DNA of 64,000 nt from a virus. The notes below the pieces were generated by a model. That model was not told the origin of the DNA. It saw only the letters and a list, made by a program, of their open reading frames with translations, and ran no database searches. The DNA lies in the IMG/VR virus record IMGVR_UViG_3300023179_000032, positions 32,001-96,000 of that record; one strand, given 5' to 3'. Made by a program: the position numbers and the translations under genes. The number at the start of each line of letters is the position of its first letter. Within the stretch, counting starts at the first letter, position 1. Shown one piece after another: positions 7,447 to 64,000 of this stretch.

Positions 7447-9045
7447 CTATTTCAATCTTCTTCTTTGTCTGGGATAAACTCTGCCATTAGTGGGTCTAGC
7501 CTTATAGTTTAACTTGGGCCAAGTAGTACCCGAATCTGCTCTTTCTTTATTATAATATAAGTACCTATTAACTGATCCCTGTAAATTAGATGGATCAGCG
7601 AAATTACCCGAACTTTCAGTCATTTGATTATATTTACTGGTTTTGTAGATATAATCTAATGCTTCTGCCTGTGTCATATCTGGATATACTTCTAAGATAC
7701 AGGCTAAAACCCCTGTGACCTGAGGACTAGCCATACTAGTTCCACTATCTTTTAATATTTTATATGTCGAATTTCTAGGATCATTTACTCCACCAGTATG
7801 TACACTACTTATGATACTACGACCTGGAGCATATACATCTACTCTAGGTCCAGAATTACTAAAAGGAGCTTTACTATCGTTAATACTTCTTCCTACGGCA
7901 CCTACATTAATTTGTCCAGTAGCTTTGACTGGGCTGGTTCCTCGGTGATAATAAACAATAAAATTATTCCAAATATAATAATTATTATAGTCAACGCCTG
8001 TAGGAATATCTATTTTGCTATAGGAATTTCCAGCTGCACCTACCATAATAATACCATCATTCATAGCACTTATAGCATCAGCGTCTATAGCCAAGTATTC
8101 TGAACTAGTATATGTGTTTGCGCCATCGTTATAAACACCATATGTACCATATAGTGTACTACTTGTAAGGCCACTAGTATAATTTACTCCCCTAAAATTA
8201 ACTCTAGTAATGCCGGCGATATTTAGTTGAGCAACATACCCCCAACTATTATTAACAATAGTGGGATTACGTCTCCCTGTAATAGGATTGATAGGTTTGC
8301 TGTTGTGCCAGGCTCTGATATAATCAAATAACAATAATGTATCTATTCCATTAGAATCACCACCGTATGGATATATGTTATAAACATTAGCGCTTCTAGC
8401 CCAACCTTGTGTATTACCAGTAGCAGTTCCAGCTACGTGCATACCGTGATTATTATTTGCTTCTATAGTAGGATCGGTATATGGTCCATATACATAAGTT
8501 CCCGAAGTTGCTGCGTGTTGCAACCAATTATATTGTATGACTCTTGTTCCACCAGTACCATCACTGTTAACAGCCATTTCTGGATGATTTGGATTAATAA
8601 AACCATCAACAATAACAATGTCAACATTACGACCTTCAGCATTAACTGTTATAGTTCCTGATACTGTTTTTGTCGTTAATATACTATCATCACCCCAGTT
8701 TTCTCTTTGTTGACCTTCCACACAACGTAATAATCCCCAATTTTTATAATTAGAATTATTTGCAGTAGATTTATTCCAAAACGAACTGGTTTGAGTCCAT
8801 TGGGGCATTGGTTTGAGACCTAATTCTGTAGGAGTTAATTCACAGGCTAAAACTCTAGGATCATTCCTAACTTGTACTGCTTCTTCTTCAGTAAGATAAT
8901 AATGTGTATTAACACTAATAGGTCTACGATTAGCAACTTCTACACAACGATCTGGTATGTATAAGTTTCCACCAAGTGTTTCCATATCCTCATAGAAACT
9001 ATCTAAGTCATCGTGATTTTTTAATGTGACTACATATTCTTTCAT
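7447..9045 (-). CDS. Subtilisin-like S8 serine protease with N-terminal propeptide-like region
   Basis: Catalytic triad motifs in S8 order: VDIVIVDG (Asp), NNHGMHVAGT (His), DSGTSMASPQVTG (Ser); oxyanion-hole AAGN motif also present. Confidence 0.9.
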   Translation of the reverse strand: MKEYVVTLKNHDDLDSFYEDMETLGGNLYIPDRCVEVANRRPISVNTHYYLTEEEAVQVRNDPRVLACELTPTELGLKPMPQWTQTSSFWNKSTANNSNYKNWGLLRCVEGQQRENWGDDSILTTKTVSGTITVNAEGRNVDIVIVDGFINPNHPEMAVNSDGTGGTRVIQYNWLQHAATSGTYVYGPYTDPTIEANNNHGMHVAGTATGNTQGWARSANVYNIYPYGGDSNGIDTLLLFDYIRAWHNSKPINPITGRRNPTIVNNSWGYVAQLNIAGITRVNFRGVNYTSGLTSSTLYGTYGVYNDGANTYTSSEYLAIDADAISAMNDGIIMVGAAGNSYSKIDIPTGVDYNNYYIWNNFIVYYHRGTSPVKATGQINVGAVGRSINDSKAPFSNSGPRVDVYAPGRSIISSVHTGGVNDPRNSTYKILKDSGTSMASPQVTGVLACILEVYPDMTQAEALDYIYKTSKYNQMTESSGNFADPSNLQGSVNRYLYYNKERADSGTTWPKLNYKARPTNGRVYPRQRRRLK

Positions 9046-10166
9046 ATTTCAGCCTGCAATAAAGTTAGAGTTACTGTAATCGTAGCAGCTGATCCACTTA
9101 GATTGGTAACTGCTACAGGAATGTTAGTAGTTGGTGTTGCTTCATCATTAAAGCCAAATACTGCCGGAGCAAGTATTACTGTTTGTGATCCAGTTGTAAT
9201 AACTTCTGCAATTACTCCTGCATCGTAACTTGGATCAATTCCTTGTGCTCTACTAGCATCTGCGGTTCTTGTTGCATTACTTACATATAGTCTTACCCAA
9301 GCAGCATGGCTCGTTGTAATTTTGTATAGCATATAACCTTTAAATCCAACAATATCTAAGTCAGCAGAGCTGTTATTTGCTATACTTGATGATGTGGAAT
9401 TTGACGTAGTCCTTGATCCTAGTAATATACTGCCCTGTATACCTTGAGCACCCTGTATACCTTGAATACCTTGAGCCGATGTTTCACCAGATAATCCTTG
9501 AAATCCTAGTATACCCTGTATACCCTGTATACCTTGACTACCTTCAATTCCTTGAACTCCGTCATTGCCTGTTATACCCTGTACACCTTGTATACCTTGA
9601 CTACCTTTAATTCCTTGAACTCCGTCATTGCCTGTTATACCCTGTACACCTTGTATACCTTGACTACCTGGAGGACCTGTATTTCCTGAATTACCAGTTC
9701 GCCCTTCTAATCCTTGTATTCCTTGTATACCTTGATTTCCTATAATACCACTAGTGCCTTGAAACCCTTGTGGTCCTTCTGATCCCTGAATACCTTGTAT
9801 ACCTTGAGATGCTGTTGCACCTTTTACACCCTGAATACCTTGGACACCTTGATTTCCATCAACACCTATGATACCATCTTGTCCTCTGATACCTTGTATA
9901 CCTTGACGACCTTGAGTACCTTGGCTTCCATTACTGCCTACAAATCCATCCTGACCTCTGATACCCTGTGTACCTTGATTACCTTTTATACCTTGTACAC
10001 CCTGTAAACCTTGCATTAAAGAAAGATTTTGAATACTGTATTCTAAAGACTGAATAGTATCATAAGTTTCAGTAAAATTTTGATTAATTTTTATAGCCGC
10101 TGCTCTGATAGTATCACCAGTTCCATCATTAGCTCTTGTTCCTACACTAATCGTTTGCTTTGCCAT
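9042..10166 (-). CDS. gp9/gp10-type N-terminal baseplate adaptor fused to a collagen-like fibre
   Basis: MAKQTISVGTRANDGTGDTIRAAAIKINQNF matches the T4 gp9/gp10 N-terminal motif; about 190 aa of Gly-X-Y (QGIQG) repeats follow. Confidence 0.8.
   Translation of the reverse strand: MAKQTISVGTRANDGTGDTIRAAAIKINQNFTETYDTIQSLEYSIQNLSLMQGLQGVQGIKGNQGTQGIRGQDGFVGSNGSQGTQGRQGIQGIRGQDGIIGVDGNQGVQGIQGVKGATASQGIQGIQGSEGPQGFQGTSGIIGNQGIQGIQGLEGRTGNSGNTGPPGSQGIQGVQGITGNDGVQGIKGSQGIQGVQGITGNDGVQGIEGSQGIQGIQGILGFQGLSGETSAQGIQGIQGAQGIQGSILLGSRTTSNSTSSSIANNSSADLDIVGFKGYMLYKITTSHAAWVRLYVSNATRTADASRAQGIDPSYDAGVIAEVITTGSQTVILAPAVFGFNDEATPTTNIPVAVTNLSGSAATITVTLTLLQAEI
9531..9669. repeat. 63-bp tandem repeat (about 2.2 copies) inside the collagen-like gene
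   Basis: ACCTTGACTA recurs at 9531, 9594 and 9657; the unit encodes SQGIQGVQGITGNDGVQGI(K/E)G. Confidence 0.9.
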
Positions 10167-33781: not shown

Positions 33782-34603
33782 ATGTCAGTAAATTATCTTA
33801 ATAATAAAGATTTATTAGAAGAAATACACAAGAGTAAAAATACATATTCGAGTTTTACACGCCCTGAATATAATCAATATGACTTGATTCTAACCAGTTT
33901 AGAGCGTATTAATATACGAACAATAGCAGAAGCTAAAAGAAATCGCGCTAAAAGATTGGGAGATGAGGAATATCATCGGAGAAGACAGGCAGGTGAAAAA
34001 ATCAAACAAAGTGAATGTGAAGTTGATTATAAAAAAATGGCCAAGACTGATCTAATATTTAGAATAATGACTTATGAACATATCCCAGTGAATAAAACAC
34101 GTAAGAAAAGTCAAAAAACTGAAGCAGATGGACACGATCGAGTAAATTTTCCACCTTTCCAACATTGGAAGTTTGATGAAAATGACGAACTCATATGCGT
34201 AGGGAAAAGTCATTGGCGAGGTGGTATAAAAAGTGGCAAGTTCAGTAAGGATCATGGACAAATAACCAACACATTGGCCCGTATGTATATCAAACTATGC
34301 GAACGTTATGCTACCCGTGGTAATGTGCGCGGCTATACCTATAACGATGAAATGCGAGCACAGGCCATACTACAACTCACACAGGTTGGACTACAATTTA
34401 ATGAAGCTAAATCGAATAATCCATTTGCTTATTTTACTGCTGCTGTTACTAATAGTTTTGTACGGATAATCAATATTGAAAAACGTAATCAAAATATTAG
34501 GGATGATATACTAGAAATGAATGATATGGCCCCAAGTTATACTAGAACTAGCAATGCTGAACACGCTGCTAGCCTACGTAGATTTGAAAGAGAAGAGGAA
34601 TGA
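33782..34603 (+). CDS. gp55: Late-transcription sigma factor gp55-like
   Basis: NYLNNKDLL at the N-terminus; GYTYNDEM..KSNNPFAYFTAAVTNSFVRIINIEKRNQNIRD; precedes gp47/gp46 as in T4-like phages. Confidence 0.85.
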   Translation: MSVNYLNNKDLLEEIHKSKNTYSSFTRPEYNQYDLILTSLERINIRTIAEAKRNRAKRLGDEEYHRRRQAGEKIKQSECEVDYKKMAKTDLIFRIMTYEHIPVNKTRKKSQKTEADGHDRVNFPPFQHWKFDENDELICVGKSHWRGGIKSGKFSKDHGQITNTLARMYIKLCERYATRGNVRGYTYNDEMRAQAILQLTQVGLQFNEAKSNNPFAYFTAAVTNSFVRIINIEKRNQNIRDDILEMNDMAPSYTRTSNAEHAASLRRFEREEE

Positions 34604-35610
34604 GTTTATTTAAAAAGGCAGCATTTTTTACAGACATACACTTTGGCTTAAAAAGCAATAGCCAAACACACAATCAAGACTGTGAAGATTTTGTAGATTG
34701 GTTTATTGCCACTGCTAAAAAGAATAGATGTGATACTGGATTCTTTTTAGGTGATTGGCATCATAATCGAAACAGTCTTAATATTGTTACTATGGATTAT
34801 AGTCTTAGGGCTTTGGAAAAACTGGGCAAGGCATTTGACCAGTTCTTTTTCTTTCCTGGTAATCATGATCTTTATTATAAAGATAAACGAGATATCCATA
34901 GTGTAGAGTTTGGCAAATATATACCAGGGATCACAATAGTGCATCAGCCTATGACCTTAGGCGAAGTTACTATGTGTCCTTGGCTTGTAGGTGAAGAGTG
35001 GAAAACTGTGGGCAAGAAAGATGCCCGTTATATATTTGGTCATTTTGAACTGCCCAGTTTTTATATGAATGCCATGGTACAGATGCCTGATCACGGTGAA
35101 ATACAACTTGATCAGTTTAAACGGTATGAACTTGGCCTAAGTGGACATTTTCATAAACGCCAAAATAAACAGAATATGCACTATATTGGTAATGCTTTTC
35201 CGCATAACTACGCAGATGCTTGGGATGATGACAGAGGCATGATGATCTTAGAGTGGGGCAGTGAGCCAGAATATCACGCTTGGCCTGACCAACCTACATT
35301 CAGAACTGTCAAATTGACTCAACTTATAGATGAACAAGATGCTATAATAAAACCTAAACAATATCTTAGAGTATTATTAGACGTGGATATCAGTTATGAA
35401 GAAAGCGGACACATTAAGGAAGAATTTTTTAACAAATATGAGATTAGGGAGTTAACTTTGATTCCAGAAAAACGTGAAGTTGAATTTGCTAGTGATTTGG
35501 AAATTAAACAATTTGAAAGTGTAGATCAAATTGTTATGAATCAATTGACCAGTGTGGAAAGTGATACCTACAATGTTAAACTATTAATGGACATTTATAA
35601 CAATTTATGA
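34600..35610 (+). CDS. gp47: Recombination endonuclease subunit gp47 (Mre11/SbcD-like)
   Basis: Metallophosphoesterase motifs FTDIHFG, FLGDWHH, GNHD, GHFE and SGHFH. Confidence 0.92.
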   Translation: MSLFKKAAFFTDIHFGLKSNSQTHNQDCEDFVDWFIATAKKNRCDTGFFLGDWHHNRNSLNIVTMDYSLRALEKLGKAFDQFFFFPGNHDLYYKDKRDIHSVEFGKYIPGITIVHQPMTLGEVTMCPWLVGEEWKTVGKKDARYIFGHFELPSFYMNAMVQMPDHGEIQLDQFKRYELGLSGHFHKRQNKQNMHYIGNAFPHNYADAWDDDRGMMILEWGSEPEYHAWPDQPTFRTVKLTQLIDEQDAIIKPKQYLRVLLDVDISYEESGHIKEEFFNKYEIRELTLIPEKREVEFASDLEIKQFESVDQIVMNQLTSVESDTYNVKLLMDIYNNL

Positions 35611-37379
35611 TTAAGATACAGGATCTTAGTGTTAAGAATTTTATGAGCGTGGGTAATAATACCCAAGCCGTCGACTTCGGCCGAGAGCAATTAACTTTAG
35701 TATTAGGCGAAAATTTAGATCAAGGAGGTGATGATTCAGGAAGCCGTAATGGTACCGGGAAAACCACAATTGTCAATGCTCTAAGTTATGCGCTCTACGG
35801 CCAAGCATTAACCAACATCAAGAAAGATAACTTAGTCAATAAAACTAATGGCAAAGCCATGTTGGTCAAGTTAAACTTTGAAAAGAATGGTGTTGAATAT
35901 CGTATTGAACGTGGACGTAGGCCTAATGTGTTTAAGTTTTTTGTCAATGGCTTAGAACAAGAAGTCATTGATGAAAGTCAAGGTGATGTAAGAGAAACAC
36001 AGAAAGACTTAGATGAACTACTAGGTATGAGCCATGATATGTTTAAGCATATTGTGGCATTAAACACATACACAGAGCCATTTCTAAGTATGAGGGCTGC
36101 GGATCAACGTATGATCATTGAGCAATTATTAGGTATTACCCTGCTCAGTGATAAGAGTGAAAGTTTAAAAAATCAAATAAAAGAAACTAAGGATGCTATA
36201 CAGCAAGAATCTGCTAATATTGAAGCAGTCAAACGCAGTAATGAACGTATTGAACAAAGTATAAACAGTCTACTTTCTAAACAACGTGCTTGGCTCAGTC
36301 AACAAGAACAGGATTTAGAAAAGATTGCTAATAGTATTTTAGAATTACAGAGTATAGACATTGAACAAGAACTGGAACAACATAATAAATTAAAAAGTTA
36401 TCTTGAACTAAGTGCTCGTATTAATAGTTTGAACAAGGAAAAGGCCACATTAGAGACTGCTGTTAGTCAGGCTGAACGTAATGTTAAGAATTATACTGTT
36501 GAATTAAAAAAATTAGCCAATAATAAATGTTCCAAGTGTGATCAAAACTTGCCAGGACATATGCACGATGAACTAAAAGCCGAGGCTGAAAACAATTTAG
36601 ATGAAGCACAAACTTATCTTAACAATGTAGATTTTAAATTAACCAATGTGGTAGCAGAATTAGATGAGATTGGTGATATAAATGGCAGACCTCAAACATT
36701 TTATGATACAATAGAAGAAGCATTAAAGCATCAAAACAATCTTGCTACACTGGAAAAAACTCTACTAAGTCGTAGTGAAGAACGGGACCCATATCAAGAA
36801 CAGATAGATGAACTGCGTAGTACAGCCATACAGGAAATTAGTTGGGACAATGTTAACCAACTTACTGAACTAAAAGAACATCAAGAATTTTTACTTAAAT
36901 TATTGACCAGTAAGGATAGTTTTATTCGTAAAAAGATCATTGATCAGAACTTGGCCTACTTGAATAATAGGTTAAGTTATTATTTGGATCGTATGGGACT
37001 ACCCCATCAGGTTAGTTTTTTAAATGATCTTAATGTGGAAATCACACAGTTAGGACAGGATTTAGACTTTGATAACTTAAGCAGAGGTGAACGTAATAGA
37101 TTAATCTTAGGATTAAGTTGGGCATTTAGAGATGTATGGGAAAGCCTATACCAGAATATTAATCTGTTGTTTATTGACGAACTTATTGACAATGGCTTAG
37201 ATGCCAGCGGTGTTGAAAGTGCTCTAGCAGTATTAAAGAAAATGGCCAGAGAACGCAATAAGAATATCTACTTGATCAGTCATAAGGATGAACTAGTTGG
37301 ACGAGTAAACAATGTATTAAAAGTTATTAAGGAAAATGGTTATACCAGTTATGCTAACGACTTGGAGATCATGGGGTGA
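35607..37379 (+). CDS. gp46: Recombination endonuclease subunit gp46 (Rad50/SbcC-like ATPase)
   Basis: Walker A SRNGTGKTT, coiled coil with CSKC zinc hook, signature LSRGE, Walker B LLFIDE and H-loop ISH. Confidence 0.93.
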   Translation: MIKIQDLSVKNFMSVGNNTQAVDFGREQLTLVLGENLDQGGDDSGSRNGTGKTTIVNALSYALYGQALTNIKKDNLVNKTNGKAMLVKLNFEKNGVEYRIERGRRPNVFKFFVNGLEQEVIDESQGDVRETQKDLDELLGMSHDMFKHIVALNTYTEPFLSMRAADQRMIIEQLLGITLLSDKSESLKNQIKETKDAIQQESANIEAVKRSNERIEQSINSLLSKQRAWLSQQEQDLEKIANSILELQSIDIEQELEQHNKLKSYLELSARINSLNKEKATLETAVSQAERNVKNYTVELKKLANNKCSKCDQNLPGHMHDELKAEAENNLDEAQTYLNNVDFKLTNVVAELDEIGDINGRPQTFYDTIEEALKHQNNLATLEKTLLSRSEERDPYQEQIDELRSTAIQEISWDNVNQLTELKEHQEFLLKLLTSKDSFIRKKIIDQNLAYLNNRLSYYLDRMGLPHQVSFLNDLNVEITQLGQDLDFDNLSRGERNRLILGLSWAFRDVWESLYQNINLLFIDELIDNGLDASGVESALAVLKKMARERNKNIYLISHKDELVGRVNNVLKVIKENGYTSYANDLEIMG

Positions 37380-37636
37380 AACCTCCACGTGATGAAGAAC
37401 TCCATGATCAGTTAATGGATGCATTTAGGAGATATTACAAGGCAAATCAAGAATGGGTTGAGAAAGGCACACGTAGGGCAGGATTAAAAACTAGAAAACT
37501 ACTTAGTGAAATTAGGCATATTGCTATAGAACGTCGTGAAGTAATCATGCAATGGCGTTATGAAATAGATAGAGAAAAGGCAGAACGTAAGGCACTTCAA
37601 AAGGCAAAGAATAAAAAGGTCGATGACAATATATAA
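37376..37636 (+). CDS. Small basic putative nucleoid/DNA-binding protein (histone H1/Hc1-like)
   Basis: GTG start overlapping the gp46 stop; F..Y......EKG...AG..TRK.L.EI pattern with a Lys/Arg-rich tail. The family call is from memory. Confidence 0.5.
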   Translation: MKPPRDEELHDQLMDAFRRYYKANQEWVEKGTRRAGLKTRKLLSEIRHIAIERREVIMQWRYEIDREKAERKALQKAKNKKVDDNI

Positions 37637-38077
37637 TTGATGTCATGGACTCATCAAGGCCAATTAGTTACAGAAATTCCAGAAGAGTATATAGGCTTCG
37701 TTTATCTTATTACGAATACACAGTCAGGCCGTATGTATATAGGCAAAAAGTTGGCACAATTTGCAAAAACAACTTACAAAATAGTAAAACTAAAAAATGG
37801 TACTAAAAAACGTAAGCGAATCAGAGGCAAAGTAGCAAGCGATTGGCGAGATTATTATGGCAGCAATGATGAACTCAAGGCAGATGTACAGAGATTAGGC
37901 ACTGAAAATTTCACAAGAGAAATATTATATTATTGTACCAGTAAGTCAGAATGTAGTTACGTTGAGGCAAGAGAACAATTTTCAAGGCGTGTATTAGAAT
38001 CAGACGATTACTATAACGGGCACATTCAGGTCAGAGTTCACGGCAAATATATTAAAGGCAAAATATTACACGGTTAA
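37637..38077 (+). CDS. Stand-alone GIY-YIG family endonuclease (catalytic domain only, 146 aa)
   Basis: GFVYLITN..GRMYIGKK motif, YYGSN (YxGS), catalytic Glu in YVEAREQF and YYNGHI; carries a basic insert KLKNGTKKRKRIRGK. Confidence 0.85.
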   Translation: MMSWTHQGQLVTEIPEEYIGFVYLITNTQSGRMYIGKKLAQFAKTTYKIVKLKNGTKKRKRIRGKVASDWRDYYGSNDELKADVQRLGTENFTREILYYCTSKSECSYVEAREQFSRRVLESDDYYNGHIQVRVHGKYIKGKILHG

Positions 38078-38082
38078 GGCTA

Positions 38083-38414
38083 GGCACTGGCCAATTTCAG
38101 GTGCCCCTATACCTGGACCACGAGTCGCAGGGATGGAAAACTCACCGCCGTAGTGAGTACTCAGCCACTACCCGCAAGGATGACGATCACTTAAATGCCG
38201 TGATTTGGCTGTTTGAACAGGATTAAAAGGCTAAAAGACGCTGTAAAAACGCAGCACGTTAGTATATGGTGATAGCATACTATATAGTAACCGCCGTTGT
38301 ATGAAGACTGTGCTCGAGGTACCGGACAACCGCCTCTGTAACGCACTAATGCTATGGACTGAGCAACTCGCATAATGTTCCTTTCGCCCTCGGATGGGCG
38401 AAGAGTGACGTCAC
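38083..38414 (+). ncRNA. Putative large structured non-coding RNA immediately downstream of the GIY-YIG gene
   Basis: GC-rich island in an AT-rich genome, with consecutive stems GGCAC/GTGCC, CCTG-GAC/GTC-CAGG, ACTCAC/GTGAGT, CAGCCA/TGGCTG (enclosing CC-GCAA-GG and ATCAC/GTGAT), GCTG/CAGC, TAGTAT/ATACTA, GAGG-CGG/CCG-CCTC and TTCGCCC/GGGCGAA. No credible ORF. Folded by eye; strand assumed from the GNRA loop and the operon direction. Confidence 0.6.
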
Positions 38415-38430
38415 AATCTGCATAATATAT

Positions 38431-38480
38431 AAAAACAAAAGAAGAAAGAAAAAGTTTTTAGGACGATAAGTCCTAAAAAA
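38431..38480 (-). terminator. Probable intrinsic terminator for leftward transcription
   Basis: 10-bp stem TTTTTAGGAC/GTCCTAAAAA (38455-38479), followed on the minus strand by CTTTTTCTTTCTTCTTTTGTTTTT. Confidence 0.6.
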
Positions 38481-38506
38481 GAGTGAGCGTAGCTTCACTC
38501 TCACCG

Positions 38507-38514
38507 TATAAATA
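38507..38514 (+). promoter_or_regulatory. T4-type late promoter (TATAAATA), probably giving a leaderless mRNA
   Basis: Perfect consensus only 4 nt upstream of the ATG at 38519; no Shine-Dalgarno. Confidence 0.8.
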
Positions 38515-38518
38515 CCAT

Positions 38519-39442
38519 ATGAAAGTTAATGAATTATTATCCGAAACAGAGTTAGATGAATTTATTGGTACTCTTGGTGCTGCTTTAGGTCTTGGTGCTA
38601 AAGCAATAGGTGGATTGATGCGTGGAGCAAGAAATGTTCCTAAAAACATATCTAAAGTACCTGTACCTACAGTACCTACTGCTAAACAAGCAACTAAAAT
38701 AGCAAAACAGCAATATAAAGATAGCTGGCTGAATAAATTGGGATTTTCTAAAAATACAACTGTTGGAAAATGGCGTATTGACAGTATGAAAAAAGCGGTT
38801 CAAAAAAGAGGTATGAAAAATCAAGCAAAAGCAATACAGCACAATATGGAAGTAGCTACTTCTATACAGGACAAGATGGCTAACTTGGGACTAAGTGTTG
38901 TAAGTACAGGCTTTTTCTTTTATGCTACTTATGATTATTTGATGAGTCGTTGGGCATTAGATCCTAATGATCCTAATTATGATGCTCAATTGGCTAAGTT
39001 GAATGCTGAATTTCTAATGGGATTTCTTGTGCCTAAAGTAATAGGAAGTATAGGCAAAATTAGTTCTGGTCTAGTAGGTAGATTAATGAAGATGACTGGG
39101 CTACCTAAAGCAGGCGAAATGGCTGCTAGATGGGGACGTCATGTATCACGTGTTGGTGAAGTAGCTGCTATGGCATGGCTTCGAACTGATGCTGGAAAAA
39201 AATGGTTTGCACAAACTTTTGCAGCAGCCATGGGGTTATTTACAGATGCAGGATATGCTTTAGAAGGTTTATTTAAACTTGTCAGTGATGTTGTTAAAGA
39301 TCCTGAGGGCTTTGTAAAAGATTTATGGGATAAAATTAAATTGCCTAAGGTGCATGATGCTTATGCAGGAACATCAGCTGCTGGTAGTATAACAAAAATG
39401 GTTCCAGATATAGTTACATCAAAGGAAGGCCGCTTTTCTTAG
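38519..39442 (+). CDS. Hypothetical late protein (307 aa), candidate internal head/ejected protein
   Basis: Start reassigned from GTG 38483 to ATG 38519, downstream of the late promoter; N-terminal MKVNELLSETELDE followed by Gly/Ala-rich hydrophobic helices. Confidence 0.7.
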   Translation: MKVNELLSETELDEFIGTLGAALGLGAKAIGGLMRGARNVPKNISKVPVPTVPTAKQATKIAKQQYKDSWLNKLGFSKNTTVGKWRIDSMKKAVQKRGMKNQAKAIQHNMEVATSIQDKMANLGLSVVSTGFFFYATYDYLMSRWALDPNDPNYDAQLAKLNAEFLMGFLVPKVIGSIGKISSGLVGRLMKMTGLPKAGEMAARWGRHVSRVGEVAAMAWLRTDAGKKWFAQTFAAAMGLFTDAGYALEGLFKLVSDVVKDPEGFVKDLWDKIKLPKVHDAYAGTSAAGSITKMVPDIVTSKEGRFS

Positions 39443-61411: not shown

Positions 61412-64000
61412 ATGAGCACAAATATTAGATTTAAACGTAGTGATATACCTGGCAAAGTACCATCACTAGATAGCATTGACCTAGGCGAAATTGCATTAAA
61501 CACAGCAGATGGTAAACTTTTTACAAAACAAGAAATTAAACAACCAGATGGATTTGCTGCTATCCAGAAGATCATCGAGATCGGCGCTACTGAAGTACCT
61601 AATGTACTTTATGTGGCCAAGAATGGTGACGACAGCAACAGCGGAAAGACCTTGGGTCAAGCTTTTTTGACACTAAAGAAGGCGCTGAGCATAGCGACTC
61701 CTGGCACAACTATTTTCTTAAAGAGTGGGGAGTATATTGAAGATAACCCATTACGTGTTCCAGCTCGTGTGTCAGTTGTTGGTGACAACCTGCGTAACAC
61801 CACAGTTCGTCCCAAGAACCCAACCAAGGATATCTTCTGGGTATACAACGGTGCTTATATCTTCTGTATGAACTTTAAGGGTCATATTGCGCCAAGTGCT
61901 GCGGTATGTTTCCCACCAGACGGAAGTGCTGGTGAAATCGTAACATCACCATACACACAGGCTGTTACAAGTATTACAACTACTGGTACAGGTATGCGTG
62001 TTGACGGTGCATTGACCACAGGCCTACGTTCAATGGTTTGTGATGCGTTTACACAGTACAACCAAGGTGGTATTGGTATTCACATGTTGAACAGAGGTAA
62101 TACACAGTTAGTGTCCATCTTTACAATTTGCTGTGACATCAGCTTTATGTGTGAAAACGGTGGTTTCTGTTCAGTTAACTTGTCAAACAGCTCATTTGGT
62201 AACTACGGTCTGGTAAGTCGTGGCGCCAGTGATCCATTATATCGTGGTGTTGTTAAGAAGTCAGCTGGTCGTCAGATCACATTTAAGAATTTAGCACGTC
62301 GTCCAAACATTGGTGATGGTGTACTTTTTGCCGATTACAACCAAAAAACCTGTGACAGAGACAACGGACTTATTGTAGATAGTTTAGCCTTTGACCTACT
62401 ATATGAAGGTACTACACAAAGTACATTCAGTGGCCTACGTTATTGGGCCAAAGATGGTATTACAATAGGTATTGAACAACAAGAACAGACAGCAGCAGCT
62501 ATCAAACGTGCTCAGACAGTGGCTAGGTCTGTTATTACTGATACATCATTTACAAGTGCTGGTAATAGTGTTAGTCAAGTAAGAGCTAATGCTTTAGGTA
62601 TTAGTACAGCTTCAGTTGGTGGCAAAACTTTCTTAGAGCGTGTTGATACCGCTAAGAGATTAGCCACAGAAGGCTTTGACATCATCAGCAGAATCGTAGC
62701 AACAGGACCAAAGAGTCCAGCTCTAATTATTGGTCCTGATCTTGATGCAGCAGAACCAGAATACAAAATACTTAGAGAACAGGTATTAGATAGAAAGAGT
62801 CAAATTGTTGATGAAACAATTGCTTTCTTAAAGACTAATTTCTCAACAGTAGCCTATGTAACAAGCAAGTGCAAGAGAGACATTGATTTAATTATCGAAG
62901 CAGTTGTTGAAGATATGATCTTTGGCACAAATTATAAGACAATTAAAGCAGCAATAAGTTATTTGAAAGCAGTAGCAGACACATATACTGTTCCAGATGA
63001 ACAGAGAACAGCTACTATTGAAGCCTATAAGTTTGCAAGAGACAAAATTGTTCCTTTAGTGCAAGAAAATGATACACTATTAGCAAGAGTACAAAATAGT
63101 TTTACTATTATTACAACAGCTCTAGCCAACGGCGGTAAGGCCTACATTGAAGGTTTATTAGACCCAACAGCGGGAACATATGCTCTAACATTCCCAGCGC
63201 AACAAGATACAGATCCAGATGTATTAAACTTGGTTAAGAACTTACAGAAAAACAAGAAGTTTGTTGTTGCTGAAGTAATTGACTATATTAATAAGAACTG
63301 GCCAACAGTGGTAGCATATGATTATGACACAAATGTTTGTGGTCGTGATATTGGTTATGCCATTGATGCTGCCTGCTATGATCTAGTATATGGTGGAAAT
63401 AGTCAAACATTAGATGCAGCTAGAAGATATTTTAACTATGCAAGTGGCCTAAGTCAACTTAAGAGCAGCGAAGAAGTACCAGCAACAATTGATGCCTTTG
63501 GACGTGCTCAGTTACTAAGCCAGCGTGTAGTTATTTTAGATAAAATTGAAGGTACACAACCTGTTCCACAGGTATTCAAAGAAGGCAGTGTTGATCTAGT
63601 GCCTACAACTCAAACACAGGTCAACAGATTAGGTGGACTATTCAGTATCTTCTTAAAGCAATTAGAAACAGAAATTGTTGGCACCAGTGATTTCATTCAG
63701 CCAAATGGTAGTCGTCTAAATGATTCAGGTTTAGAAAACGCATTTGATCTATTACAGGCCAACAAACAATTTATTAAGAATGATGTTATAAATTATCTAG
63801 CAGTTGCATATCCTGGCTTTGATTATGACAAAGTCAAATGTGCTCGTGATGTTGGCTATATCATTGACAGTATTTGTTTTGATATTGTACACGGTGGTAA
63901 TCGTCAGGCTGTAACAGCTGGCATTTATTACTTTGATTTCAACGAAGACAAAAATGTTTTAACCAGTATAGTACCAAAGCAGATCAAACAAACTGTAAAT
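61412..64000 (+). CDS. Large virion structural protein, partial (runs off the right edge), with pectin-lyase-like beta-helix region and helical KCxRD repeats
   Basis: Not in the ORF track. Manual translation: MSTNIRFKRSDIPGKVPSLDSIDLGEIALNTADGKLF...VLYVAKNGDDSNSGKTLGQAFLTLKKAL..TIFLKSGEYIEDNPL..VVGDNLRNTTV; later repeats TCDRDNGLIVD, KCKRDIDLIIE, VCGRDIGYAID, KCARDVGYIID. At least 863 codons open. Confidence 0.85.
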   Translation, partial: MSTNIRFKRSDIPGKVPSLDSIDLGEIALNTADGKLFTKQEIKQPDGFAAIQKIIEIGATEVPNVLYVAKNGDDSNSGKTLGQAFLTLKKALSIATPGTTIFLKSGEYIEDNPLRVPARVSVVGDNLRNTTVRPKNPTKDIFWVYNGAYIFCMNFKGHIAPSAAVCFPPDGSAGEIVTSPYTQAVTSITTTGTGMRVDGALTTGLRSMVCDAFTQYNQGGIGIHMLNRGNTQLVSIFTICCDISFMCENGGFCSVNLSNSSFGNYGLVSRGASDPLYRGVVKKSAGRQITFKNLARRPNIGDGVLFADYNQKTCDRDNGLIVDSLAFDLLYEGTTQSTFSGLRYWAKDGITIGIEQQEQTAAAIKRAQTVARSVITDTSFTSAGNSVSQVRANALGISTASVGGKTFLERVDTAKRLATEGFDIISRIVATGPKSPALIIGPDLDAAEPEYKILREQVLDRKSQIVDETIAFLKTNFSTVAYVTSKCKRDIDLIIEAVVEDMIFGTNYKTIKAAISYLKAVADTYTVPDEQRTATIEAYKFARDKIVPLVQENDTLLARVQNSFTIITTALANGGKAYIEGLLDPTAGTYALTFPAQQDTDPDVLNLVKNLQKNKKFVVAEVIDYINKNWPTVVAYDYDTNVCGRDIGYAIDAACYDLVYGGNSQTLDAARRYFNYASGLSQLKSSEEVPATIDAFGRAQLLSQRVVILDKIEGTQPVPQVFKEGSVDLVPTTQTQVNRLGGLFSIFLKQLETEIVGTSDFIQPNGSRLNDSGLENAFDLLQANKQFIKNDVINYLAVAYPGFDYDKVKCARDVGYIIDSICFDIVHGGNRQAVTAGIYYFDFNEDKNVLTSIVPKQIKQTVN

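What the first reader, a model, noticed from the sequence alone, without database searches (positions are those of the whole stretch)
37637..38414. Minimal GIY-YIG nuclease followed at once by a roughly 330-nt highly structured RNA: candidate RNA-associated nuclease system
Seen in sequence: the 146-aa GIY-YIG protein has only the catalytic domain plus a Lys/Arg-rich insert. Six bases after its stop begins a GC-rich non-coding island of at least eight consecutive stems, including a three-way junction (38162-38211) with a GCAA tetraloop. Established knowledge: T4 Seg and I-TevI homing endonucleases carry long C-terminal DNA-recognition domains, which are missing here, whereas compact nucleases with an adjacent structured RNA (IscB/HEARO, TnpB) take specificity from RNA. 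Inference: the protein and RNA may form an RNP, either guided or RNA-regulated, expressed from the gp55-gp47-gp46 transcript. Alternatives are an independent phage ncRNA or a structured replication origin nicked by the nuclease.
Basis: partly seen in the sequence, partly recalled or inferred. Interest (0 to 1): 0.85.

Follow-up and report, generated by a model that had tools for sequence, protein, structure and literature searches.

The report
Twin-box phage RNA beside nuclease gene
The gene-free stretch behind a small nuclease gene of this uncultured T4-like phage encodes a real, doubly knotted non-coding RNA of at least 350 bases whose first third is the catalogued but unexplained Polynucleobacter-1 motif; the nuclease looks like a fixed neighbour, not an RNA-guided partner, and the RNA's job is still unknown.

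Summary
A 146-aa GIY-YIG ORF (37637-38077) is followed one base later by a real structured RNA on the + strand.

The first 136 nt are a full-length, 102.8-bit match to Rfam RF01718 (Polynucleobacter-1). This orphan motif was already noted in 2010 to lie downstream of one gene family.

In 93 diverse relatives the RNA is at least 350 nt long (38079 to about 38430, perhaps to about 38500). It has 13 helices and 2 pseudoknots, 94% of cells paired and 62 pairs with double changes.

The uncatalogued 3' two-thirds carry two identical 7-nt 'twin boxes' (38370-76 and 38420-26). They changed together at least 36 times.

The RNP or guide reading is not supported:
- The linkage is clade-wide synteny (gp47-gp46-orf-GIY-RNA).
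- In the seven other phages examined, the same compact GIY-YIG family is followed by protein genes or a tRNA; the one whole genome searched with RF01718 (Melnitz) has no match.
- The RNA also occurs behind a PD-(D/E)XK nuclease, in a non-T4 contig, and in a bacterial chromosome between integrase genes.
- No terminal guide-like segment, no target and no covarying GIY-YIG residue was found.

The function is unknown. This scan has met the same RNA on many other genomes.

The parts
37376..37636 (+). 86-aa ORF between gp46 and the GIY-YIG gene. It overlaps the gp46 stop and abuts the GIY-YIG start.
   Evidence: no Pfam or PHROG hit. It is conserved in part of the clade.
37637..38077 (+). Compact GIY-YIG endonuclease gene (146 aa), SegE-type catalytic domain with a basic beta-hairpin insert and no DNA-binding domain.
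   Evidence: PF19835 E 5.8e-34 and phrog_447 E 2.4e-37. Invariant G20/V22/Y23, Y34-I35-G36, E110/E113 and N127 in 25 relatives. AF2 model pLDDT 82.9. Weak fold matches to the I-TevI catalytic domain.
38079..38214 (+). 5' domain of the RNA, equal to Rfam RF01718 Polynucleobacter-1. Helices: P1 38084-88/38100-04; P2 38113-18/38124-30; P3 38141-44/38154-57; three-way junction P4 38162-66/38207-11 with P4a 38172-73/38178-79 (GCAA loop) and P4b 38185-90/38200-05.
   Evidence: cmscan 102.8 bits, model positions 1-141 of 141. Covariation in 93 sequences.
38212..38237 (+). Conserved single-stranded joiner (UUUGAA ... AAGGCUAAAAGA).
   Evidence: Nearly invariant columns in alignment A1.
38240..38255 (+). 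P5 hairpin, variable in sequence.
   Evidence: Five pairs, all with double changes.
38258..38291 (+). P6 long hairpin. Its loop 38272-38278 forms pseudoknot PK2 with 38349-38355.
   Evidence: All 13 pairs of P6 and all 7 pairs of PK2 show double changes.
38296..38346 (+). Invariant core: PK1 38296-38300/38326-38330, P7 38310-13/38343-46 and P8 38316-19/38333-36, around GGUACCGGACAACCGCC.
   Evidence: for example pair 38310-38346 with GC 40, CG 37, UA 9 and AU 5. Invariant columns.
38366..38377 (+). Twin box 1: ACUC-GCAUAAU-G (core 38370-38376).
38382..38403 (+). P9 hairpin between the boxes, followed by GUGAC (38405-38409).
   Evidence: Eight pairs, 95% of cells paired.
38416..38427 (+). Twin box 2: AUCU-GCAUAAU-A (core 38420-38426).
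38455..38500 (+). Two further hairpins (38455-38479 and 38481-38500) at the place where relatives have conserved hairpins H-a and H-b. This is the possible 3' end or terminator region of the RNA.
   Evidence: Covariation was not tested, so membership of the RNA is inferred.
38507..38514 (+). T4-type late promoter TATAAATA of the next gene (ATG 38519). It marks the outer limit of the RNA.
   Evidence: Read directly from the sequence. The same arrangement is seen in relatives.

Best explanation
Window 38079 to about 38430 (possibly to about 38500) encodes the full-length form of the orphan Polynucleobacter-1 RNA, a single-copy, doubly pseudoknotted non-coding RNA. It lies at the 3' end of the gp55-gp47-gp46-orf86-GIY-YIG operon of a freshwater T4-like phage. 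It is most likely made by read-through of that operon and then acts on its own, in trans. A rigid knotted scaffold displays two single-stranded tails. Each tail follows a helix plus GUGAC and carries the same 7-nt word, so an as yet unidentified reader that pairs with or recognises both words is implied (a bivalent decoy, sponge or docking RNA). The GIY-YIG protein is a conserved, RNA-independent DNA-metabolism endonuclease of the phrog_447/SegE-like family. In this clade it happens to be the last ORF of the operon: a neighbour, not a partner. Shown: the RNA, its structure, its strand, the twin boxes, the synteny, and the independence of the two distributions. Inferred: co-transcription, trans action, and the existence of a common reader.
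For: RNA identity and structure:
- RF01718 at 102.8 bits over the full model.
- 74 pairs in 15 helix segments of the tool's table (13 named helices plus 2 pseudoknots), 94.1% paired, 62 pairs with double changes, 0 of 500 shuffles reaching the observed values.
- G.U pairs such as 38185-38205 (91 of 93 sequences) fix the + strand.
- One copy per genome in 9 long contigs, including one 99% complete genome.

Linkage is synteny:
- All 80 closest GIY-YIG loci show gp47-gp46-(orf86)-GIY-RNA-...-baseplate.
- 67 of 71 loci with enough flank carry the twin-box RNA.
- 103 of 106 genuine RNA-anchored loci have GIY-YIG upstream.

The nuclease is not a sporadic homing gene:
- Mean identity to the window's proteins is 70.9% for GIY-YIG against 64.6% for gp46; GIY-YIG is the more conserved in 96 of 118 loci.

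The protein occurs without the RNA:
- 715 phage records hold homologues.
- In Melnitz, S-CAM7, S-SKS1, FelixO1, phi4:1 and phiM12 the gene is followed by protein genes, and in S-RIM2 by a tRNA; the neighbouring genes include primase, ribonucleotide reductase, RecA, exonuclease and thymidylate synthase.
- The whole Melnitz genome has no RF01718 match.

The RNA occurs without the protein:
- L138 has a PDDEXK_15 nuclease in the slot.
- L169 lies in a ligase/WYL/wHTH context.
- Bacterial genome G099 has the full twin-box RNA between integrase genes, with no GIY-YIG within 8 kb.
- About 10 loci have a 341-aa ORF between the nuclease gene and the RNA.

No GIY-YIG residue tracks the box words (maximum MI 0.28 bit against about 1 bit of entropy).
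Against: Within this clade the adjacency is nearly perfect. When GIY-YIG is replaced, the replacement is another nuclease (L138). The non-T4 copies also sit near DNA-joining or DNA-cutting enzymes: integrases in G099 and a ligase 2.4 kb upstream in L169. A functional tie to DNA enzymes in general is therefore not excluded. There are no transcript data, so co-transcription, the ends of the RNA and its processing are all inferred.
Confidence: 0.7

Rival explanations
1. Nuclease-RNA partnership: the RNA binds the compact GIY-YIG protein and supplies target specificity or regulates it. The variable twin boxes would act as guide words.
For: The pair is adjacent in 62 of 71 GIY-anchored loci and GIY-YIG lies upstream in 103 of 106 RNA-anchored loci. 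The protein lacks a DNA-binding domain and has a basic beta-hairpin. The boxes are the only fast-changing, single-stranded words in an otherwise conserved scaffold.
Against: The protein family is far wider than the RNA, and the homologues examined in other phages have no adjacent RNA. The RNA persists without GIY-YIG, and an ORF is inserted between the two in about 10 loci. The variable words are internal and duplicated, not a terminal guide. No matching or complementary site was found within 1.2 kb or at a homologous second place in 9 long genomes. No GIY-YIG residue covaries with the boxes. The literature held has no RNA-guided GIY-YIG precedent.
Confidence: 0.07
2. Homing-endonuclease slot: the genes in front of the RNA (GIY-YIG, occasionally PD-(D/E)XK) are free-standing homing endonucleases, or descend from them. 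They use the highly conserved RNA gene as cleavage target or landing pad, as T4 SegB does with the tRNA cluster. The RNA is only the target gene.
For: The protein belongs to the SegE family. An unrelated nuclease family occupies the same slot in L138. Extra ORFs are inserted at the same junction. In S-RIM2 a homologue sits just before a tRNA gene.
Against: The gene is fixed in the clade and more conserved than gp46, not patchy. It has no DNA-recognition domain. No empty allele was found. In other phages the family sits among DNA-metabolism genes without RNA genes.
Confidence: 0.12
3. Cis-acting 3' element: the structure only protects, terminates or insulates the operon transcript at the junction with the convergent baseplate genes.
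For: It always begins within about 20 nt of an upstream stop codon and ends before the next gene's late promoter.
Against: About 350 nt with two pseudoknots, invariant single-stranded blocks and concerted twin boxes is far more than a stabiliser needs. The same RNA stands in unrelated contexts, including a bacterial chromosome.
Confidence: 0.08
4. Structured DNA element: a replication origin or nicking site used by the nuclease.
For: None beyond the adjacency to a nuclease gene.
Against: The covariation includes many G.U pairs that are A.C mismatches on the other strand, and pseudoknots that make sense only for one RNA strand. There is no skew change at the site.
Confidence: 0.02

Closest known systems
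Polynucleobacter-1 RNA motif (Rfam RF01718; Weinberg et al. 2010, Genome Biol 11:R31, PMC2864571)
   Same: The 5' 136 nt match the whole 141-position model at 102.8 bits. The paper's supplement already says that most examples lie downstream of one gene family (GOS11034, possibly related to PSSM2_218 of cyanophage P-SSM2) and come from fresh-water and estuary samples.
   Different: The catalogued motif is only the first third of the RNA. The remaining 215 nt or more (P5-P9, two pseudoknots, twin boxes) is not in Rfam. The 2010 authors found no example in a sequenced phage, whereas here it is a standard gene of a large clade of T4-like phages. Variant 5' scaffolds missed by the model keep the same 3' module.
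IscB/HEARO and TnpB omega-RNA systems (RNA-guided nucleases with an adjacent structured RNA)
   Same: A small nuclease gene with a large structured RNA directly beside it.
   Different: The nuclease fold is GIY-YIG, not RuvC or HNH. The protein and RNA distributions are uncoupled. There is no terminal guide, no transposon ends and no target.
T4 Seg endonucleases, for example SegB in the tRNA gene cluster and SegE (established knowledge of T-even phages)
   Same: A GIY-YIG catalytic domain of the SegE Pfam family; a gene lying next to a structural RNA gene.
   Different: There is no C-terminal DNA-binding domain. The gene is fixed and strongly conserved rather than sporadic.
Large orphan phage or prophage ncRNAs (GOLLD, ROOL)
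   Same: Large, intricately folded, phage-borne RNAs of unknown function.
   Different: There is no sequence or model match. This RNA is smaller and has the twin-box module. The resemblance comes from general knowledge and was not tested structurally.

Membership tests
Rfam RF01718 Polynucleobacter-1 | Covariance-model score at or above the gathering threshold (37 bits) over the whole model | tested here: met
   102.8 bits, model positions 1-141 of 141, E 4e-21.
Rfam RF01718 Polynucleobacter-1 | Consensus helices kept by compensatory changes in relatives | tested here: met
   P1-P4b are 86-99% paired with double changes in 93 sequences.
Rfam RF01718 Polynucleobacter-1 | Position downstream of GOS11034-family genes (Weinberg 2010 supplement) | tested here: inconclusive
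   The RNA lies downstream of one conserved gene family, the compact GIY-YIG. I could not check whether GOS11034 is that family.
GIY-YIG nuclease superfamily (PF19835 SegE_GIY-YIG) | Profile match above the curated cut-off | tested here: met
   117.4 bits against a cut-off of 25, E 5.8e-34.
GIY-YIG nuclease superfamily (PF19835 SegE_GIY-YIG) | GIY and YIG motifs plus conserved acidic and Asn residues | tested here: met
   Invariant G20, V22, Y23, Y34-I35-G36, E110, E113 and N127 in 25 relatives. Their assignment to catalytic roles is by analogy with I-TevI and is inferred.
GIY-YIG nuclease superfamily (PF19835 SegE_GIY-YIG) | GIY-YIG fold | tested here: inconclusive
   AF2 model with pLDDT 82.9. 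Foldseek lists the I-TevI catalytic domain (probability 0.80, TM 0.59 on the target) and a GIY-YIG restriction enzyme, but all matches have E above 0.1.
Free-standing homing endonuclease (Seg type) | C-terminal DNA-recognition domain | tested here: not met
   The protein is 146 aa and the Pfam domain spans residues 4-130. All 80 relatives are 141-159 aa.
Free-standing homing endonuclease (Seg type) | Sporadic presence among close relatives | tested here: not met
   Present in 103 of 106 RNA-anchored loci, and more conserved than gp46.
RNA-guided nuclease with adjacent guide RNA (IscB/TnpB type) | Obligate co-occurrence of the protein family and the RNA | tested here: not met
   Protein without the RNA. 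RNA without the protein.
RNA-guided nuclease with adjacent guide RNA (IscB/TnpB type) | Variable guide segment at one end of a constant scaffold, matching a target or flanking DNA | tested here: not met
   The only variable words are two internal 7-nt boxes. No matching or complementary site was found.
RNA-guided nuclease with adjacent guide RNA (IscB/TnpB type) | RNA-dependent cleavage | not testable with these tools
   Needs biochemistry.
Other known RNA classes (tmRNA, RNase P, group I/II introns, self-cleaving ribozymes, riboswitches) | Match to any Rfam model | tested here: not met
   Nothing other than RF01718 comes near its threshold in 37300-38800, even at E up to 10. ARAGORN finds no tRNA or tmRNA.

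The most novel reading that the evidence does not exclude
The twin-box RNA is a specificity module for DNA-cutting or DNA-joining enzymes. Its two identical words would pair with two copies of the same DNA sequence (for example on two genome copies) and bring them to whichever nuclease, ligase or recombinase is encoded next to it. That would be an RNA-programmed DNA transaction using enzyme folds (GIY-YIG, PD-(D/E)XK, tyrosine recombinase) not yet known to be RNA-guided.
Probability: 0.05. Interest if true: 0.9.

Novelty: new variant of a known kind. Interest (0 to 1): 0.45.

Why it matters
An orphan 141-nt Rfam motif turns out to be the head of a doubly pseudoknotted RNA of 350-420 nt. That RNA is a standard single-copy gene of a very abundant clade of freshwater T4-like phages, and it also occurs in a bacterial genomic island. 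Its two 7-nt boxes evolve fast but always together, more tightly than Watson-Crick helices do. This calls for a reader that no known RNA class explains. For the finding as written, the result is sobering: the attractive 'RNA-guided GIY-YIG nuclease' reading is not supported.

Tried and rejected
- Group I intron, tmRNA, RNase P, ribozymes and riboswitches: no Rfam match even at E up to 10; no tRNA or tmRNA.
- Coding or translational-bypass reading of the boxes (CUC-NNA-URA looks like codon plus stop): rejected. The box spacing of 47-63 nt falls in all three classes mod 3, and indels shift the upstream frame between relatives.
- Cis partner for the boxes: none by mutual information in 93 sequences, and none by a complement scan over +-1.2 kb, with or without G.U. 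The invariant joiner GUUGUUUGA could pair with either box through U-A and U.G pairs. It shows no compensatory change, and half of it is already used by P4.
- Helix between the 6-mers in front of the boxes, and ACUC/GAGU pairing: poorly supported.
- Second genomic site carrying each phage's own word: none in 9 long contigs. The test required the exact 7-mer and at least 60% flank identity, and most contigs are incomplete. A single 11-mer hit inside a 6792-aa ORF of this genome is at chance level.
- Phage tRNAs matching the 'codon' in the box: the genome has Met, Leu-UAA and Arg-UCU, while the box has GCA.
- CsrA-type GGA sites: only about half of the boxes contain GGA.
- GIY-YIG residues covarying with the boxes: none.
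- att-like repeat of the RNA's 3' end near the bacterial copy: none within 17 kb.
- The pattern scan of bacterial genome contigs returned only chance hits in GC-rich genomes.
- PDB search by sequence for the nuclease: nothing.

Full report
**What is there.** The window is part of a 122-kb contig of an uncultured T4-like phage. Genes for gp55 (33782-34603), gp47 (34600-35610), gp46 (35607-37379), an 86-aa ORF (37376-37636) and a 146-aa ORF (37637-38077) overlap or abut on the + strand. The 146-aa protein matches Pfam PF19835 (SegE_GIY-YIG) at E 5.8e-34 over residues 4-130, and PHROG 447 at E 2.4e-37. One base after its TAA stop, G+C rises to 50-56% against 30-40% around it. No sizeable ORF follows until ATG 38519, which has a T4-type late promoter TATAAATA at 38507-38514.

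**The RNA is partly known.** A scan of the whole window against Rfam gives one hit: RF01718, Polynucleobacter-1, at 38079-38214 on the + strand. It scores 102.8 bits against a threshold of 37 and covers model positions 1-141 of 141. A permissive scan of 37300-38800 adds nothing else credible. The only paper in the held library that names the motif is Weinberg et al. 2010 (PMC2864571). [quoted passage not shown] It also says that most examples lie downstream of genes of family GOS11034, possibly related to PSSM2_218 of cyanophage P-SSM2, and that none was found in a sequenced phage. So both the motif and a link to an upstream gene family have been in print since 2010. Its function is not known.

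**The real RNA is much larger.**
- The GIY-YIG protein has at least 570 relatives in IMG/VR.
- In 63 of the 80 closest loci, blastn finds the window's intergenic sequence directly after the homologous gene. Similarity runs over about 356 nt, not 136.
- A search with a 17-nt pattern from the 3' part (GGTACCGGAYRACCGCC) brought 119 further loci.
- I aligned 93 sequences that are less than 88% identical to one another (alignment A1) and tested a hand-built structure on them.
- The structure has 74 pairs in 15 helix segments, with 94.1% of cells paired against 78.6% in column shuffles (0 of 500 shuffles reach the observed value).
- 62 pairs show changes on both sides, and the covariation score is 0.419 against 0.166. 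Pairing is only 37-44% when partners are slid by 1-3 columns.

Besides the Rfam helices P1-P4b, the structure contains:
- P5 (38240-44/38251-55)
- P6 (38258-70/38279-91)
- P7 (38310-13/38343-46)
- P8 (38316-19/38333-36)
- P9 (38382-89/38396-403)
- pseudoknot PK1 (38296-300/38326-30; for example 38298-38328 is UA in 57 and CG in 36 sequences)
- pseudoknot PK2, the loop of P6 paired with 38349-55

Frequent G.U pairs, such as 38185-38205 in 91 of 93 sequences, fix the + strand. Downstream of the second box, relatives have a small UUCG-type hairpin (108 of 137). Two more hairpins follow, and then the late promoter of the next gene. The window has hairpins at 38455-79 and 38481-500. The transcript may therefore end near 38500; this is inferred, not tested.

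**Twin boxes.**
- Box 1 is ACUC-GCAUAAU-G (38366-77) and box 2 is AUCU-GCAUAAU-A (38416-27). They flank P9 and a GUGAC motif.
- In every relative the 7-nt core is the same in both boxes, yet it differs between RNAs: 11 words in phages, all fitting NNAURAW.
- Searches that did not require agreement found no discordant case.
- On a tree built from the rest of the RNA, the word changes at least 36 times.
- The core columns share all their information with each other and with no other column.
- The constant flanks differ between the boxes (ACUC against AUCU, G against A). This argues against simple gene conversion or a target-site duplication, and for a common reader.
- I found no such reader. There is none in the RNA, none within 1.2 kb, and none at a homologous second site in nine long contigs, one of them a 99% complete 343-kb genome.
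- The boxes are not a reading frame. Their spacing of 47-63 nt covers all classes mod 3.

**Two other versions of the RNA.** Variant B is seen in L018 and L037, and variant C in L062 and L076. They have different 5' scaffolds and are missed by RF01718, but they keep the module of box, hairpin, GUGAC and box. That module therefore looks like the functional end of the RNA.

**Is the nuclease a partner?** Within this clade the two are nearly always together. 67 of 71 GIY-anchored loci with enough flank have the twin-box RNA: 62 adjacent and 5 behind an inserted ORF. 103 of 106 genuine RNA-anchored loci have GIY-YIG upstream. But the whole neighbourhood is syntenic, gp47-gp46-(orf86)-GIY-RNA-...-baseplate gene, so adjacency alone says little. 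The tests that go beyond synteny speak against a partnership:

1. The protein family is far wider than the RNA. 715 phage records hold homologues, including 339 Synechococcus phages, FelixO1-like phages and others.
   - In Melnitz (the closest cultured phage, 52% identity), S-CAM7, S-SKS1, FelixO1, Cellulophaga phage phi4:1 and phiM12, the gene is followed directly by protein genes. Its neighbours include primase, ribonucleotide reductase, RecA, exonuclease and thymidylate synthase genes.
   - In S-RIM2 it is followed by a tRNA-Arg gene.
   - The whole Melnitz genome has no RF01718 match.
2. The RNA occurs without the protein.
   - In L138 the slot holds a PDDEXK_15 nuclease (E 5.6e-30).
   - In L169 a 96.8-bit copy lies behind DNA ligase, WYL and wHTH genes and before a peptidase gene.
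   - In a 2.0-Mb bacterial genome (G099) a 96-bit copy has its own twin boxes (AACAAAA) and both downstream hairpins. It lies between integrase-family genes, with no GIY-YIG within 8 kb.
   - In about ten loci a 341-aa ORF separates the nuclease gene from the RNA.
3. No GIY-YIG residue follows the box words: maximum MI is 0.28 bit against about 1 bit of entropy.
4. There is no terminal hypervariable guide and no target.

**The nuclease itself.** It is not a typical selfish homing gene.
- It is fixed in the clade and more conserved than gp46: mean identity to the window's proteins is 70.9% against 64.6%, higher in 96 of 118 loci.
- All relatives are 141-159 aa, with no DNA-binding domain.
- The GIY and YIG motifs and the conserved Glu and Asn residues are invariant.
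- An AlphaFold2 model (pLDDT 82.9) puts the Lys/Arg-rich stretch in a long beta-hairpin.
- Fold matches to the I-TevI catalytic domain are weak.
- Its company in other phages suggests a DNA-metabolism endonuclease. Which reaction it performs is not known.

**Best reading and rivals.** The best reading (confidence about 0.7) is an autonomous non-coding RNA, the full-length Polynucleobacter-1 or 'twin-box' RNA. It would be made at the end of the replication and recombination operon and present two identical words to an unknown reader. The GIY-YIG gene would be a fixed neighbour. The rivals are:
- a true nuclease-RNA pair (0.07)
- a homing-endonuclease slot that uses the conserved RNA gene as target, like SegB and the T4 tRNA genes (0.12)
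- a purely cis-acting 3' element (0.08)
- a DNA origin (0.02)

One observation keeps a small door open for a link to DNA enzymes. In the non-T4 contexts I examined, a DNA-cutting or DNA-joining enzyme is encoded nearby: the PD-(D/E)XK nuclease in L138, integrases in G099 and a ligase in L169.

**Earlier notes of this scan.** After I had reached this reading, look-ups showed that the same RNA had been reported many times on other genomes under the name 'twin-box' or extended Polynucleobacter-1 RNA. Those reports drew the same conclusions. Two of the notes gave me leads that I then tested. One said that copies exist in host chromosomes, which I confirmed in G099. The other said that the RNA sits beside DNA-cutting or DNA-joining enzymes, which is partly borne out.

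**Novelty.** The 5' third is already known. The full-length architecture, the twin boxes, the variant scaffolds and the standing of this RNA as a core gene of a phage clade are not in Rfam, and the only paper in the held library that names the motif does not describe them. I file it as a new variant of a known kind.

Noticed in passing
L138:8819-9385 (IMG/VR 3300022935_000194): In one relative the GIY-YIG slot between gp46-orf84 and the RNA is occupied by an unrelated PDDEXK_15 nuclease (PF24608, E 5.6e-30).
   Followed up: partly
L011:3429-4454 (also L012, L025, L095, L102, L150, L195): A 341-aa ORF with no Pfam match is inserted between the GIY-YIG gene and the RNA in about ten loci.
   Followed up: partly
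L084, downstream of the GGTACCGG motif: An RNA copy with a deletion of roughly 100 nt that removes the PK2 3' strand, box 1 and hairpin P9, leaving a single box. Its GIY-YIG match is also weaker (60%).
   Followed up: no
L018, L037, L050, L069 (variant B); L062, L064, L065, L076, L043 (variant C): Two further versions of the RNA with different 5' scaffolds. RF01718 does not detect them, but they keep the twin-box/hairpin/GUGAC module.
   Followed up: partly
L332 about 8812-9330 (G099:C1:1722811 onward): A bacterial chromosome carries a full twin-box RNA (core AACAAAA). Upstream lie a 430-aa integrase-like ORF and a DUF6641 gene; downstream lies a 198-aa Phage_integrase ORF. This looks like a genomic island. 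No att-like repeat was found within 17 kb.
   Followed up: partly
L169:7508-7934 and flanks: A copy of the RNA in a contig without T4-like genes. DNA ligase, WYL_2 and wHTH genes lie upstream; S11 peptidase and Fe-S assembly genes lie downstream.
   Followed up: partly
Relatives, 30-110 nt after box 2; window 38455-38500: Two more hairpins recur after the boxes. The first often has the form stem-GA-[GC NNNN GC]-GAA-stem, and the second has a GNA triloop. They are followed directly by the late promoter (T)ATAAATA of the next gene.
   Followed up: no
L324:2468-3158 (Synechococcus phage S-RIM2): The cyanophage homologue of the compact GIY-YIG gene is followed after 162 nt by a tRNA-Arg gene.
   Followed up: no
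window 61412-64000 and beyond (G000:C1:93412-113790): A single open frame of 6792 codons, a giant virion-type protein, starts near the end of the window.
   Followed up: no
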